A stretch of DNA of 26,231 nt from a virus, in the IMG/VR virus record IMGVR_UViG_3300042731_005304; one strand, written 5' to 3'. Shown here one piece after another: positions 3,615 through 5,335 of this stretch; position 1 is the stretch's first letter; each line of letters starts with the position of its first letter. Made by a program: the position numbers and the translations under genes. The notes below the pieces were generated by a model. The model saw nothing but the letters and a program-made list of their open reading frames with translations, was not told the DNA's origin and made no database searches.

Positions 3615-4433
3615 TTAACTTCTAGTTCGAGCCGTCTTTCTTTGCTCTTCCTTCATCTTCATAATAGGAATATCGCCCTGAAAGATGTGAAGAGAAAAAC
3701 AATGGAATGTAAAGTCTCCCATTGTCACGTTGTTCCAAAACGAATCTTTTTCTCTTAGCTTTTCAAGCACCCACTGTGCTAGACGACAAGCCATATAGAT
3801 GTCATCTCTTAGATATCTAAGAGCATCACAGCTTCTTATCACATAATGAGAGTGAAGCCTATTGTTTCGCATCATAAAATGATAGCCGATTGTACACGGA
3901 ACTCTCATCTTGTGAACTTGTCCATTGTCCTCAGGATGCCAGATTGTTAAGAAAGCTTGCCGTGTATATGGATCACGAGCAAGAAGATTGACTACATCGT
4001 CTGTGTCGCCATAGTCAAATCGAATGCCTTTTCGAACTTTGTTCTTCTTGACGAACTTCGGCCAAAATCTTTCAGCATAGGTGTGAGAGAATTTGTTGCC
4101 ATCTACTTCTAGAGAGAAGTTGCTGTCTTTGACCCAAAATGGCCACCGAACATATGATGGCATTGGGTTCATTGGTATACCAGAAACTCTTTCACCAAAG
4201 TGCTCATCAGCCCATTCTAAGTTGGGCTCTACCTGATTAGCAAGCTCTTCTTTAGAATCAGGGATTGGAGCAGTGAAGCCTACGTTTTCAACTTCATATG
4301 CTTTGTATTCGCCTTCAATCTTTTTTGCTTGCCAATACTGATTGTCTATAGGCTGACCATTCTCTAGCAAATGCATAGAGACGGCATCCAGACCTTCAGA
4401 CAAGCTAGAAAACCTTGTTGGGTTTACTGTCAT
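3615..4433 (-). CDS. ThyA-family pyrimidine C5-modifying enzyme. It is a thymidylate synthase or dNMP hydroxymethylase homolog, possibly dCMP hydroxymethylase-like
   Basis: MRVPCTIGYHF carries a Pro-Cys nucleophile motif like ThyA LPPCH. VIRSCDALRYLRDDIYMACRLAQ aligns by eye to ThyA [20 protein letters not shown]. By that alignment an Asp in DDIY replaces the Asn of FNIASY. This is the switch that distinguishes dCMP hydroxymethylase from ThyA. Only a single Arg (TRQAF) stands where ThyA has SRR. Confidence 0.6.
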   Translation of the reverse strand: MTVNPTRFSSLSEGLDAVSMHLLENGQPIDNQYWQAKKIEGEYKAYEVENVGFTAPIPDSKEELANQVEPNLEWADEHFGERVSGIPMNPMPSYVRWPFWVKDSNFSLEVDGNKFSHTYAERFWPKFVKKNKVRKGIRFDYGDTDDVVNLLARDPYTRQAFLTIWHPEDNGQVHKMRVPCTIGYHFMMRNNRLHSHYVIRSCDALRYLRDDIYMACRLAQWVLEKLREKDSFWNNVTMGDFTFHCFSLHIFQGDIPIMKMKEEQRKTARTRS

Positions 4434-4441
4434 ATTAACTC

Positions 4442-5335
4442 CTATTCTATATGATCTTCATCAAACTTAGCTATCTTTTGTTTTACCTTTTCTGTGGCTT
4501 CGTTCCATGCGTCTTGAATCTCTGGGTCGTTTAGATTCCAGACTCTGTCTTCAAGAGTAAACGGGTTGTAACGCTTGATAAGTCTATTTTCAAAATCTTC
4601 TATATTTTTGCCATAGACGTGATATGAGTCTGCTTGCCAATTCATTCTACCTAGTTTTACAGGTTCACCAATTCCTTCTTCGATTGGATTAGCAATTGCT
4701 ACTCTAATAAAATGAGTGAGGCCGAACATGTTCATGAATGCGGCACCCCAAGCGTCATTACTTCGGATTCTGATATTTATATTCAATCGGTGTACAGAAG
4801 AACCACCTCTTTCTTCTTCGCTACTTGAAAGCCGGCACCAAATAGATTGTAAGCATGGAGGGTCGTAGACGTCGTTGTCCATGAACGGCATCCATGTAAT
4901 TGCTTGAGCTCTTCTTGTGTGTGGAGCTTCAATCAATTTCTCAACCATTCTTTCTATCTGATTAACTGGTTCAGCTATTTGGACCAGTTCACCTTCTTCT
5001 CTCCAAACTCCCCAAGCAGCAAGACGTTGATGGTAAGTATATTCCCAACGAGTATCTTCTGGGTCATCCATATTTTTAGTCCAGTGGTCCTTAGCGCCTT
5101 GAAGTTCCATTACGTATTCACGTAAGTCTTCGATTCCACCAGGGAATAACTTATAAACCATCGGTTCAGATTCTGGCTCTTCTATTGTGATATTTGCTGT
5201 TGCATCTATCGAAGGAGGCTCGTCCTTATTATCGTATTGAGTCTTGATTCTTTCACCTTTTCGATATAACTCAATCAAAGAATTTTCATATGCTTCCGGC
5301 AGGGTTTTGCCAGACACGGTAATTACTGGTATCAT
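4442..5335 (-). CDS. ThyA-family enzyme, either thymidylate synthase or dUMP hydroxymethylase-like
   Basis: TRRAQAITWMPF matches ThyA SRRIIMSAWNP. DPPCLQSIW has the Cys nucleophile. IRSNDAWGAAFMNMFGLTHF matches QRSxDxxLGxPFNIASY with the Asn retained. DSYHVYGKN matches ThyA GDAHIY. Length is 297 aa. Confidence 0.7.
   Translation of the reverse strand: MIPVITVSGKTLPEAYENSLIELYRKGERIKTQYDNKDEPPSIDATANITIEEPESEPMVYKLFPGGIEDLREYVMELQGAKDHWTKNMDDPEDTRWEYTYHQRLAAWGVWREEGELVQIAEPVNQIERMVEKLIEAPHTRRAQAITWMPFMDNDVYDPPCLQSIWCRLSSSEEERGGSSVHRLNINIRIRSNDAWGAAFMNMFGLTHFIRVAIANPIEEGIGEPVKLGRMNWQADSYHVYGKNIEDFENRLIKRYNPFTLEDRVWNLNDPEIQDAWNEATEKVKQKIAKFDEDHIE

What the first reader, a model, noticed from the sequence alone, without database searches (positions are those of the whole stretch)
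3615..5335. Tandem ThyA-family paralogs, one with a dCMP-hydroxymethylase-like Asn-to-Asp substitution
Two adjacent genes both carry the ThyA catalytic Cys and RSxD motifs. The 297-aa protein keeps the dUMP-specifying Asn (FMNMFGL aligning to FNIASY) and the SRR-like TRR. It therefore looks like a bona fide dUMP-acting enzyme, either thymidylate synthase or dUMP hydroxymethylase. By my by-eye alignment, the 272-aa paralog has Asp at that position (LRDDIYM) and only one of the paired Arg residues. This is the same change that makes T4 gp42 act on dCMP. A phage carrying one U-specific and one probably C-specific C5-pyrimidine transferase is a strong hint that its DNA contains a modified pyrimidine, such as 5-hmC, 5-hmU or a hypermodified derivative.
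Basis: inference. Interest (0 to 1): 0.75.

Follow-up and report, generated by a model that had tools for sequence, protein, structure and literature searches.

The report
Thymidylate synthase plus cytosine-type homolog
A large phage carries an ordinary-looking thymidylate synthase with a distantly related enzyme inserted next to it whose active site is built for cytosine rather than uracil, which suggests, but does not prove, that the phage puts a modified cytosine into its DNA.

Summary
Two adjacent minus-strand genes, 4442-5335 (297 aa, "TS-A") and 3615-4433 (272 aa, "TS-B"), are both thymidylate-synthase-fold proteins with the catalytic Cys and an RSxD motif. Profile alignments put Asn202 (TS-A) and Asp211 (TS-B) at E. 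coli ThyA N177. Asp is invariant there in 137/137 diverse TS-B relatives.

They are not tandem duplicates: they share 27% identity over 66 residues. TS-A is the resident gene, syntenic in related phages. Its family is chromosomal in at least 575 bacterial species, often in purH-TS-glyA-folE2 operons, so it is most likely a true dUMP-to-dTMP synthase. TS-B lies exactly between TS-A and a conserved 63-aa ORF. Its family is phage-borne (206 clusters at 50% identity) and elsewhere sits in cassettes of dNMP kinase, gp56-like NTPase, TS-B, dCMP deaminase and PolA. Published metavirome work ties that architecture to cytosine-modified DNA.

"Hydroxymethylase-like" is supported only for substrate choice. 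TS-B lacks the acidic residue (Arg177) and the Glu58 equivalent (Asn71) of T4 gp42 and MilA. 5-methyl-dCMP is the more likely product, but this is unproven. No dCTPase, kinase, deaminase or glycosyltransferase lies in the 26-kb window. I rate it a new member of a known kind, of moderate interest.

The parts
4442..5335 (-). TS-A, 297 aa. A thymidylate-synthase-fold enzyme of a bacterial clade related to the methanogen-type TS. Predicted dUMP-to-dTMP synthase. Key residues: E77, Y101, R141-R142, D158, C161, R191-S-N-D194, N202, H239, Y241.
   Evidence: Pfam PF00303 32.6 bits. TIGR03283 101.6 bits over its full length, below the cut-off. AF2 pLDDT 93.1 with TS-fold matches. N202 aligns to ThyA N177. 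55-59% identity to chromosomal genes in at least 575 bacterial species, with purH-TS-glyA-folE2 operons. Syntenic in related phages.
3615..4433 (-). TS-B, 272 aa. A phage-type TS-fold enzyme (family B, PHROG 160) with a cytosine-specifying Asp. Predicted dCMP C5-transferase whose product is unresolved (5-methyl-dCMP favoured). Key residues: N71, R82, Y119, R158-Q159, R177, C180, T181, R200-S-C-D203, D211, H249, F251.
   Evidence: Pfam PF00303 29.8 bits. PHROG 160 E 1.3e-28. AF2 pLDDT 91.6, with top Foldseek hits MilA bound to dCMP/CMP, the HY126 dCMP hydroxylase and L. casei N229D bound to dCMP. D211 aligns to N177 by hhalign at 93.5% probability. D is invariant in 137/137 representatives and R177 in 143/144.
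3801..3803 (-). Codon for Asp211 of TS-B, at the position of E. coli ThyA Asn177 (base-specificity determinant).
4730..4732 (-). Codon for Asn202 of TS-A, at the position of E. coli ThyA Asn177.
3903..3905 (-). Codon for Arg177 of TS-B, at the position of ThyA Leu143. Known hydroxymethylases and hydroxylases have Asp/Glu here, and Xp12-type 5mdCMP synthases have Asn.
   Evidence: rule from PMC13326640 and PMC6400193.
4221..4223 (-). Codon for Asn71 of TS-B, at the position of the catalytic Glu58 of ThyA (Glu60 of T4 gp42). It is never Glu in family B.
   Evidence: PMC6400193.
4439..4443 (-). AGGAG ribosome-binding site for TS-B. It overlaps the TS-A stop codon, and the genes are 8 nt apart, which implies co-transcription.
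   Evidence: read directly from the sequence.
3418..3609 (-). Conserved 63-aa ORF. In related phages it directly follows TS-A, so it marks the downstream edge of the TS-B insertion.
   Evidence: 60% identity to the ORF after TS-A in L097/L098 and 42% in L003.

Best explanation
The locus holds two functionally different enzymes of the thymidylate-synthase fold.

TS-A (297 aa) is this phage lineage's resident thymidylate synthase, taken from a bacterial clade related to the methanogen-type TS. It methylates dUMP to dTMP using methylene-tetrahydrofolate.

TS-B (272 aa) is a phage-specific family member lying immediately downstream and co-transcribed. Its invariant Asp at the ThyA-N177 position makes it bind a cytosine nucleotide. 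Its retained Ser201 and Arg158 indicate the deoxy form, dCMP. Cys180 would attack C6, and a one-carbon unit would be added at C5.

The modified dCMP would then be phosphorylated and incorporated into phage DNA, as in T4 (td plus gp42) and Xp12-type phages. This would protect the genome from host nucleases.

The most likely product is 5-methyl-dCMP, with 5-hydroxymethyl-dCMP second.

Shown here: fold, residue identities, family-wide invariance, synteny and insertion, and genomic associations.
Inferred: substrate, product, and the presence of modified DNA.
For: Fold and register:
- Both AF2 models are confident and TS-like.
- Asp211/Asn202 at N177 by three alignment methods.
- Asp is 137/137 across 50%-clustered representatives.

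TS-A as a true TS:
- Chromosomal in at least 575 species.
- Same-strand purH-TS-glyA-folE2 operons in about 15 of 80 loci.
- Keeps E58, Y94, both Arg, D169, N177, H207 and Y209 equivalents.
- The methanogen-type TS also has an acidic residue at position 143, so Asp158 is a trait of the branch.

TS-B as a non-redundant addition:
- Present only in this phage, inside a backbone conserved in relatives.
- 0 of 80 other family-B loci have a second ThyA-type TS nearby.

TS-B as a cytosine enzyme feeding DNA:
- Family-B cassettes are dNMP kinase, gp56-like NTPase, TS-B, dCMP deaminase, PolA, and there is a TS-B::deaminase fusion (P0129).
- The same domain neighbourhood (TS with Asp177, deaminase, PRA-PH, PolA) is strongly enriched in cytosine-modified metavirome contigs, and 5 of 7 such TS homologs tested made 5mdCMP (bioRxiv 10.1101/2024.12.05.627091; PMC8670742).

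Deoxy specificity: Ser201 and Arg158 are retained, unlike MilA's Ala176 and Lys133 (PMC5175136).

Methyl favoured: there is a non-acidic Arg in the R-V-P-C loop. Xp12/PaMx28 have N-V-P-C, whereas T4, ViI-like, SPO1-like, MilA and HY126 have D/E-x-x-C.
Against: - No family-B enzyme has been assayed, as far as my searches show.
[quoted passage not shown] It also has invariant Arg residues at the positions of the W83/L143 hydrophobic lid, though the W83 assignment is by eye. Its chemistry or cofactor may therefore differ from both methylases and hydroxymethylases.
- Profile scores place family B no closer to known dCMP enzymes than to dUMP hydroxymethylases.
- The window contains no dCTPase, dNMP kinase, deaminase, DHFR or glycosyltransferase. 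The rest of the genome could not be retrieved.
- In the siphophage cassettes every neighbour (dUTPase, dCMP deaminase, thymidylate kinase) is also compatible with plain dTTP synthesis.
- TS-A's Asp158 fits the published hydroxymethylase rule, and TS-A scores nearly as well against a SPO1-type dUMP hydroxymethylase as against the methanogen-type TS.
Confidence: 0.6

Rival explanations
1. Both enzymes make dTMP. TS-B is just a very divergent thymidylate synthase acting on dUMP, the pair is redundant or condition-specific, and the DNA is canonical.
For: Every public annotation of family B says 'thymidylate synthase'. In Muddy-type phages it is the only TS-type gene and sits with a dUTPase-like protein, a dCMP deaminase and a thymidylate kinase, a set that can be read as a complete dTTP pathway.
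Against: - Asp at the N177 position is invariant (137/137). This substitution switches TS to dCMP in mutagenesis studies cited in PMC8670742.
- Asp177 TS homologs are enriched in cytosine-modified contigs (PMC8670742).
- A phage lineage that already has a conserved TS gained TS-B next to it, which argues for a different function.
- The 'dUTPase' of the cassette resembles the T4 gp56 dCTPase.
Confidence: 0.13
2. TS-B uses the TS fold for different chemistry on dCMP: a C5 modification other than methyl or hydroxymethyl, or a non-folate cofactor, by analogy with the flavin-dependent 5-hydroxy-dCMP synthases.
For: - Family B never has Glu at the Glu58 position (0/131).
- It has invariant Arg177 (L143 position) and Arg82 (near the W83 position, by eye), plus its own invariant motifs: PNLPW, SHTYPER, PEDTG.
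- There is precedent for cofactor switching in this superfamily: RB69 gp48 and HY126 AfhB (PDB 9IQU/9IQC) (PMC13326640).
- No characterised enzyme is a close relative.
Against: - It keeps Asp203 (D169), whereas 5-hydroxy-dCMP synthases are marked by D169N (PMC13326640).
- Conserved acidic residues one helical turn after Asn71 (D76/E77) could replace Glu58.
- Deaminase-linked Asp177 TS homologs tested so far mostly made 5mdCMP (bioRxiv 10.1101/2024.12.05.627091).
Confidence: 0.12
3. TS-A is a dUMP hydroxymethylase and not a TS, so the phage replaces both pyrimidines: 5-hmdU-derived bases from TS-A and modified C from TS-B.
For: TS-A has Asp158 at the L143 position together with Asn202. By the published rule this is the 5hmdUMP-synthase signature (PMC13326640). 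It shares the D-x-P-C and RSND motifs with a SPO1/SP10-type dUMP hydroxymethylase (Nachito), with hhalign score 74 at 96.6% probability. An NT5C 5'-deoxynucleotidase lies 15 kb away.
Against: - TS-A's family, with the same invariant Asp, is a chromosomal gene in hundreds of bacterial species, often between purH and glyA. 5hmdUMP has no known role there.
- The methanogen-type TS also has Glu at this position.
- No 5-HMUDK, aGPT-Pplase or dTTPase homolog was seen in the window.
Confidence: 0.07
4. TS-B acts on a ribonucleotide (CMP, as MilA does) or on RNA/tRNA, in keeping with the tRNA-rich neighbourhood, and not on DNA precursors.
For: MilA (CMP hydroxymethylase) is the best structural and profile match in the PDB. 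The window is rich in tRNA genes and tRNA-related enzymes.
Against: TS-B keeps Ser201 and Arg158, the residues whose replacement (Ala176, Lys133) gives MilA its CMP preference (PMC5175136). Elsewhere family B is linked to DNA polymerase, dNMP kinase and dCMP deaminase genes, not to RNA enzymes.
Confidence: 0.03

Closest known systems
Phage T4 td (thymidylate synthase) plus gp42 (dCMP hydroxymethylase)
   Same: One phage encodes a uracil-specific and a cytosine-specific TS-fold enzyme. The cytosine enzyme has Asp at the ThyA-N177 position (T4 D179, TS-B D211), a catalytic Cys and an RSxD motif.
   Different: - TS-B has Arg177 where gp42 has the water-activating Asp145, and Asn71 where gp42 has Glu60 (PMC6400193).
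- hhalign score to gp42 is only 41.
- No glucosyltransferase, gp56 or gp1 homolog is in the window.
- Here the two genes are adjacent.
Xp12 / PaMx74-type 5-methyl-dCMP synthases (represented here by Xanthomonas phage MET13-T1 and Pseudomonas phage PaMx28)
   Same: Asp at N177, a non-acidic residue three positions before the catalytic Cys in an x-V-P-C loop, D169 kept, and (in other family-B phages) an adjacent dCMP-family deaminase.
   Different: - Only about 25-28% identity over about 100 residues.
- Xp12-type enzymes keep Glu58 and sit next to DHFR and a 'hydrolase'. Family B lacks Glu58, and no DHFR was found near it in 80 loci.
- In the window the neighbour is a second TS and not a deaminase.
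MetaGPA cassettes: Asp177 TS homolog, dCMP-family deaminase, PRA-PH/MazG and PolA (bioRxiv 10.1101/2024.12.05.627091; PMC8670742)
   Same: Family-B relatives in Muddy, Serratia phage Opt-155, a Manatee Spring virus and contig L005 show the same domain neighbourhood. Such cassettes were experimentally associated with cytosine-modified DNA, and most TS homologs tested from them made 5mdCMP.
   Different: I could not establish whether any tested enzyme belongs to family B, because no supplementary sequences are held. The window's TS-B has lost or never had this cassette context.
MilA, the CMP 5-hydroxymethylase of mildiomycin biosynthesis (PDB 5B6D/5JP9)
   Same: Best PDB match by profile (E 2e-6) and by Foldseek (E 2e-13, TM 0.66-0.69). 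The Asp at the specificity position aligns.
   Different: About 15% identity. MilA has Asp at the L143 position, Glu68, and Ala176/Lys133 for ribose preference. TS-B has Arg177, Asn71, and Ser201/Arg158 (PMC5175136).
Methanogen-type thymidylate synthase (TIGR03283)
   Same: It is the best NCBIfam model for both proteins. TS-A matches it end to end, and a viral member (PhiF1) gives hhalign probability 98%. They share Asn at position 177 and an acidic residue at position 143.
   Different: Scores are below the equivalog cut-off (101.6 and 47.8 against 174.55 bits). TS-A is about 90 residues longer and belongs to a bacterial, not archaeal, clade.

Membership tests
Thymidylate synthase superfamily (ThyA fold, Pfam PF00303) | Significant match to the family profile | tested here: met
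   Both proteins exceed the Pfam gathering score (32.6 and 29.8 against 24.3 bits).
Thymidylate synthase superfamily (ThyA fold, Pfam PF00303) | TS fold | tested here: met
   AF2 models have pLDDT 93.1 and 91.6. All top Foldseek PDB hits are TS-family chains with E about 1e-12 to 1e-13.
Thymidylate synthase superfamily (ThyA fold, Pfam PF00303) | Catalytic Cys (Ec C146), phosphate-binding Arg (R166, R126), D169 and H207 | tested here: met
   TS-A has C161, R191, R141, D194, H239. TS-B has C180, R200, R158, D203, H249. All are (near-)invariant in both families.
Canonical dUMP-methylating thymidylate synthase (EC 2.1.1.45): TS-A | Asn at Ec N177 (uracil recognition) | tested here: met
   N202, in 119/119 family members.
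Canonical dUMP-methylating thymidylate synthase (EC 2.1.1.45): TS-A | Glu58, Tyr94 and Tyr209 equivalents | tested here: met
   E77, Y101 and Y241 are conserved. Y101 was assigned to Y94 from the EYTYHQR motif and not from the automatic alignment, which left a gap in that column.
Canonical dUMP-methylating thymidylate synthase (EC 2.1.1.45): TS-A | Hydrophobic residue at Ec L143 (excludes water and favours hydride transfer) | tested here: not met
   Asp158, in 119/119 members. The methanogen-type TS (PhiF1) also has Glu here, so the rule may not apply in this branch.
Canonical dUMP-methylating thymidylate synthase (EC 2.1.1.45): TS-A | Housekeeping role in cells, within a folate one-carbon context | tested here: met
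   Chromosomal in at least 575 species, with purH-TS-glyA-folE2 operons. Whether it is the sole TS in those genomes was not testable.
Canonical dUMP-methylating thymidylate synthase (EC 2.1.1.45): TS-A | dTMP formation from dUMP and methylene-THF | not testable with these tools
   Needs an enzyme assay or thyA complementation.
Methanogen-type TS equivalog (TIGR03283) | Score above the curated cut-off (174.55 bits) | tested here: not met
   TS-A scores 101.6 bits and TS-B 47.8 bits. They are related to this equivalog but are not members.
dCMP hydroxymethylase (T4 gp42 type): TS-B | Asp at Ec N177 (T4 D179), for cytosine recognition | tested here: met
   D211, 137/137.
dCMP hydroxymethylase (T4 gp42 type): TS-B | Acidic residue at Ec L143 (T4 D145) that activates the hydrating water | tested here: not met
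   Arg177, 143/144. The role of D145 is described in PMC6400193.
dCMP hydroxymethylase (T4 gp42 type): TS-B | Catalytic Glu60 (Ec E58) | tested here: not met
   Asn71. The family has N, D, H, Q, T or S here and never E (0/131).
dCMP hydroxymethylase (T4 gp42 type): TS-B | Companion genes: dCTPase, hm-dNMP kinase, glucosyltransferase | tested here: inconclusive
   None in the 26-kb window, and the rest of the genome is unavailable. Other family-B phages do carry a gp56-like NTPase and a dNMP kinase.
5-methyl-dCMP synthase (Xp12 / PaMx74 type): TS-B | Asp at N177 with D169 kept and a non-acidic residue at L143 | tested here: met
   D211, D203 and R177. The Xp12-like and PaMx28 enzymes have D, D and N.
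5-methyl-dCMP synthase (Xp12 / PaMx74 type): TS-B | Sequence membership in the Xp12/PaMx74 clade | tested here: not met
   Only 25-28% identity over about 100 columns. hhalign scores of 65-69 are lower than those to dUMP hydroxymethylases.
5-methyl-dCMP synthase (Xp12 / PaMx74 type): TS-B | Linked deaminase and DHFR | tested here: not met
   Neither is in the window. In 80 family-B loci, 15 have a deaminase and 0 have DHFR.
5-methyl-dCMP synthase (Xp12 / PaMx74 type): TS-B | 5mdCMP product | not testable with these tools
   Needs co-expression with a dNMP kinase and LC-MS, as in bioRxiv 10.1101/2024.12.05.627091.
5-hydroxy-dCMP synthase (RB69 gp48 / HY126 AfhB type): TS-B | D169N together with N177D | tested here: not met
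   TS-B keeps Asp203 (135/137 D in the family), whereas 9IQU reads R-S-Q-N. The diagnostic comes from PMC13326640.
CMP hydroxymethylase (MilA type): TS-B | Ala in place of Ser167 and Lys in place of Arg126 (ribose preference) | tested here: not met
   S201 (131/137) and R158 (146/147) are retained (PMC5175136).

The most novel reading that the evidence does not exclude
[quoted passage not shown] It is cytosine-specific but lacks the otherwise highly conserved catalytic Glu, and it has two invariant arginines lining the cofactor site. It would make a C5-modified dCMP by chemistry or with a cofactor not yet described. If so, hundreds of phage lineages would carry an unrecognised cytosine modification, including this huge phage and the therapeutic mycobacteriophage Muddy, where family B is currently annotated as plain thymidylate synthase.
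Probability: 0.12. Interest if true: 0.8.

Novelty: new member of a known kind. Interest (0 to 1): 0.45.

Why it matters
If TS-B makes a modified dCMP, this huge-phage lineage replaces or supplements cytosine in its DNA. That would affect how it evades restriction and CRISPR, and how its DNA behaves in sequencing and cloning.

The analysis also gives three wider leads:
1. A large phage family annotated as "thymidylate synthase" in over 100 isolate genomes carries an invariant cytosine-type active site. This includes Muddy and many Gordonia and Streptomyces phages. The family is probably mis-annotated.
2. A widespread bacterial TS clade carries Asp at the L143 position. The published rule that an acidic residue there means a hydroxymethylase therefore cannot be applied blindly.
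3. Family B lacks the catalytic Glu58, which makes it a worthwhile target for enzymology.

Tried and rejected
- **Megablast of the window against 50,697 phage records:** no match.
- **Looking for the source contig in IMG/VR,** by single-protein scan and by an exact 38-mer from the window start: nothing found. The rest of the genome could not be inspected.
- **tblastn of accessory proteins against the window:** dNMP kinases, gp56-like and dUTPase_2 NTPases, dCMP deaminases, DHFRs, T4 alpha- and beta-glucosyltransferases, the Xp12-type 'hydrolase' and the Muddy gp47-type partner. Only chance-level hits.
- **PHROG scan of ten unannotated window ORFs:** one family of unknown function.
- **Testing whether the conserved partner gene upstream of family B in siphophages is a hidden TS-fold protein:** hhalign probabilities below 1% and no PDB profile hit. 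Its G-x-C-M-Q ... Y-Y-R-S-T-E motifs remain a by-eye impression only.
- **Generic clustering of family-B neighbourhoods:** mostly lineage-specific unknowns, so I replaced it with targeted searches. One Pfam call failed on a coordinate error.
- **A first residue tabulation of the representatives** was wrong because hmmalign --trim shifted the numbering. I redid it correctly.
- **Literature searches** for PDB codes 9IQU/9IQC, for modified DNA in Muddy-type phages and for the bacterial TS-A clade found nothing specific. The preprint's supplementary sequences are not held.
- **Recent horizontal acquisition of TS-B judged by composition:** rejected, because its GC and codon usage match the window.
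- **P0170 and similar long family-B proteins as functional fusions:** rejected. They are intein or LAGLIDADG insertions.
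Full report
**1. What is there.** The interval holds two complete minus-strand ORFs: 4442-5335 (297 aa, here TS-A) and 3615-4433 (272 aa, here TS-B). They are 8 nt apart, and an AGGAG site at 4439-4443 overlaps the TS-A stop codon, so they are almost certainly co-transcribed. Both pass the Pfam gathering threshold for PF00303 and hit PHROG 160 'thymidylate synthase'. AlphaFold models built on family alignments are confident (pLDDT 93.1 and 91.6) and match only TS-family structures in the PDB. Two independent public assemblies contain the same TS-A, TS-B, orf63, MVP stretch at 100% identity, so the arrangement is real.

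**2. The residue claims.** All agree.

| E. coli ThyA | TS-A | TS-B |
|---|---|---|
| E58 | E77 | N71 |
| R126 / R127 | R141 / R142 | R158 / Q159 |
| L143 | D158 | R177 |
| C146 | C161 | C180 |
| H147 | L162 | T181 |
| R166-S-C-D169 | R191-S-N-D194 | R200-S-C-D203 |
| N177 | N202 | D211 |
| H207 | H239 | H249 |
| Y209 | Y241 | F251 |

The family-B profile's best L. casei TS match is 1njc, the N229D mutant solved with dCMP. In an exhaustive search, family B comprises 206 clusters at 50% identity with E ≤ 1e-30. Across 149 representatives Asp is 137/137 at the N177 position, Arg 143/144 at L143, and Cys 142/143 at C146.

**3. Not tandem paralogs.** The two proteins share only 27% identity over 66 residues (E 0.07). 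At profile level they are homologous over about 220 columns (hhalign probability 95.9%). Both score best against the methanogen-type TS model TIGR03283, though below its cut-off.

Synteny settles the history. Related phage contigs have the following gene orders, with 66-70% protein identity to the window:
- L097/L098: DHH, isochorismatase, TS-A, orf63, MVP-like.
- L003: DHHA1, TS-A, further ORFs, orf63.

In the window, TS-B sits exactly between TS-A and orf63. The closest TS-B relatives (87% and 69% identity) lie in other contexts without TS-A. None of 80 IMG/VR family-B neighbourhoods has a second ThyA-type TS within 10 kb, and one has ThyX. TS-B's base composition and codon usage match the rest of the window, so the insertion is not very recent.

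**4. TS-A.** Its family is not phage-specific. A scan of species-representative genomes found at least 575 loci, at 53-59% identity, in Spirochaetota, Bacteroidota, Verrucomicrobiota, Ignavibacteriales and Fibrobacteres, including complete chromosomes. In about 15 of the 80 loci examined it lies in a tight same-strand purH-TS-glyA-folE2 operon. That places it next to serine hydroxymethyltransferase, which makes methylene-THF. TS-A keeps the Glu58, Tyr94, both Arg, Asp169, Asn177, His207 and Tyr209 equivalents.

The one anomaly is an invariant Asp at the L143 position. In the rule used by Lee et al. (PMC13326640) and rationalised structurally for T4 gp42 (PMC6400193), this marks hydroxymethylases. 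However, the methanogen-type TS of virus PhiF1 has Glu at the same place together with Asn177. An acidic residue there is thus a trait of this whole branch. A bacterial housekeeping gene making 5-hmdUMP is implausible. I therefore read TS-A as a genuine dTMP synthase (about 0.8) and keep the dUMP-hydroxymethylase reading as a minor rival. TS-A does score nearly as well against a SPO1/SP10-type dUMP hydroxymethylase (Nachito) as against the methanogen-type enzyme.

**5. TS-B.** Close relatives (40-46% identity) are annotated 'thymidylate synthase' in over 100 isolate phages of Gordonia, Mycobacterium (Muddy gp46), Streptomyces, Microbacterium, Serratia and Pseudomonas. In these genomes the gene sits in a conserved cassette: dNMP kinase, a dUTPase_2-type NTPase resembling T4 gp56, a 250-300-aa unknown, TS-B, a dCMP-family deaminase, then PolA. 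In Muddy it is the only TS-type gene. One metagenomic protein (P0129) fuses TS-B to the deaminase.

This is the domain neighbourhood that the MetaGPA studies found enriched in cytosine-modified contigs: Asp177 TS homolog, dCMP_cyt_deam_1/MafB19 deaminase, PRA-PH, DNA_pol_A. In those studies 70% of deaminases in modified contigs had a nearby TS, against 6% in unmodified contigs. Five of seven such TS homologs tested made 5-methyl-dCMP, like the Xp12 enzyme, and the deaminase then supplies dTTP from 5mdCTP (PMC8670742; bioRxiv 10.1101/2024.12.05.627091). I could not establish whether any assayed enzyme is a family-B member.

**6. Substrate and product.**
- *Base:* Asp211 argues for cytosine.
- *Sugar:* TS-B keeps Ser201 and Arg158, the two residues whose replacement gives MilA its CMP preference (PMC5175136), so dCMP is expected.
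- *Product:* every characterised hydroxymethyl- or hydroxyl-forming enzyme I aligned has Asp/Glu three residues before the catalytic Cys. These are T4 gp42 (DFMC), a ViI-like enzyme (DMIC), Nachito (DFPC), MilA (DVAC) and HY126 AfhB (EYPC). The 5mdCMP-synthase-type enzymes of an Xp12-like phage and PaMx28 have NVPC, and E. coli TS has LAPC. TS-B has RVPC. TS-B also keeps Asp203, so it lacks the D169N mark of 5-hydroxy-dCMP synthases (PMC13326640).

On these rules a methyl product is favoured. My estimate is about 50% 5mdCMP, 20% 5hmdCMP, 15% something else and 15% not cytosine at all.

The caveat is that family B never has Glu at the Glu58 position: Asn in 78, Asp in 35 and other residues in 18 of 131. 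[quoted passage not shown] Conserved acids one helical turn later (D76/E77) might substitute for it. The recent discovery of flavin-dependent dCMP hydroxylases with this fold shows that cofactor switches do happen. By profile score family B is about equally distant from all characterised phage clades, so function cannot be transferred by homology.

**7. Context in the window.** The 26 kb belong to a large phage. It encodes 10 tRNAs and a tmRNA, a major-vault-protein-like protein, a DHH phosphoesterase, PncA-type nicotinamidase, ClpP, a non-specific endonuclease, an RF-1-domain protein, NifS-type cysteine desulfurase, NrdJ, an NT5C deoxynucleotidase, a PolX-like nucleotidyltransferase, a radical SAM enzyme, a Thg1-like protein and an ATP-dependent ligase. 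None of the accessory genes expected for a modified-pyrimidine pathway is present: dCTPase, dNMP kinase, deaminase, DHFR, glycosyl- or carbamoyl-transferase, 5-HMUDK, aGPT-Pplase. The source contig could not be found in IMG/VR, so their absence from the whole genome cannot be claimed.

**8. Verdict.** The pair is best described as a resident, bacterial-type thymidylate synthase with an inserted, phage-type, cytosine-specific TS homolog next to it. This is functionally analogous to T4 td plus gp42, or to the ThyX plus family-B pair seen in a Manatee Spring virus. It is a reasonable but unproven pointer to modified cytosine in the DNA. The specific label 'hydroxymethylase-like' is not supported beyond the Asn-to-Asp change.

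The finding is a new member of a known kind, in an unusual tandem context, and of moderate interest. The more interesting residue of the analysis is that family B as a whole looks mis-annotated and is mechanistically atypical.

Noticed in passing
window 694-3375 (-): An 893-aa protein with Major Vault Protein shoulder, Vault_3 repeat and SPFH/Band_7 domains and a strongly acidic C-terminal tail. It is conserved at about 70% identity in related phage contigs (L097/L098), always just downstream of the TS locus. A vault-protein homolog as a conserved gene of a large phage is unusual.
   Followed up: partly
window 160-367, 5370-5444, 9457-9606, 10214-10285, 11520-11593, 12038-12267, 19077-19343 (all -): Ten tRNA genes and a short tmRNA (about 265 nt, tag peptide GEEQFLMAA), found by ARAGORN and confirmed by Rfam. 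They lie alongside a Thg1-like tRNA-His guanylyltransferase (23283-24059) and an RF-1-domain protein (11183-11518). This is a translation-support island typical of huge phages.
   Followed up: partly
window 13433-14752, 8044-8694, 22349-23281 (all -): Phage-encoded NifS/IscS-type cysteine desulfurase (it also scores on the DndA model, below its cut-off), PncA-type nicotinamidase, and a radical SAM enzyme with no specific family assignment. Their roles are unknown, and I found no link to the TS genes.
   Followed up: no
P0241, P0170, P0258, P0262, P0282, P0285 and others (family-B homologs, not in the window): Family B is a hot spot for mobile insertions. One member has a true intein (Hint plus splicing domains). 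At least ten of 149 representatives have a LAGLIDADG endonuclease-like insert at one site, just before the invariant SHTYPER motif.
   Followed up: partly
L010 5093-5986 (Muddy gp47), L011 5183-5992, L012 2909-3679, L005 7385-8122: A conserved 245-297-aa protein of unknown function always lies immediately upstream of family-B genes in the siphophage cassettes. It was once annotated 'pyrimidine hmase'. By eye it has G-x-C-M-Q ... Y-Y-R-S-T-E motifs reminiscent of the TS core, but hhalign and a PDB profile search find no TS homology.
   Followed up: partly
L013-L092 (bacterial chromosomal loci): The TS-A family is a widespread bacterial thymidylate-synthase-like clade (Spirochaetota, Bacteroidota, Verrucomicrobiota and others) with an invariant Asp at the E. 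coli L143 position, often in purH-TS-glyA-folE2 operons. It is below the cut-off of every NCBIfam TS model. It contradicts a simple reading of the rule that an acidic residue at position 143 means a hydroxymethylase.
   Followed up: partly
L181 (Mycobacterium phage Muddy, complete genome), genes 45-49: The therapeutic phage Muddy has a family-B enzyme (Asp at the N177 position) as its only TS-type gene. It is flanked by a dCMP-family deaminase (annotated hypothetical), a gp56-like NTPase and a dNMP kinase. This layout matches that of 5mC-substituted phages and predicts modified cytosine in Muddy DNA. I found no report testing this.
   Followed up: partly
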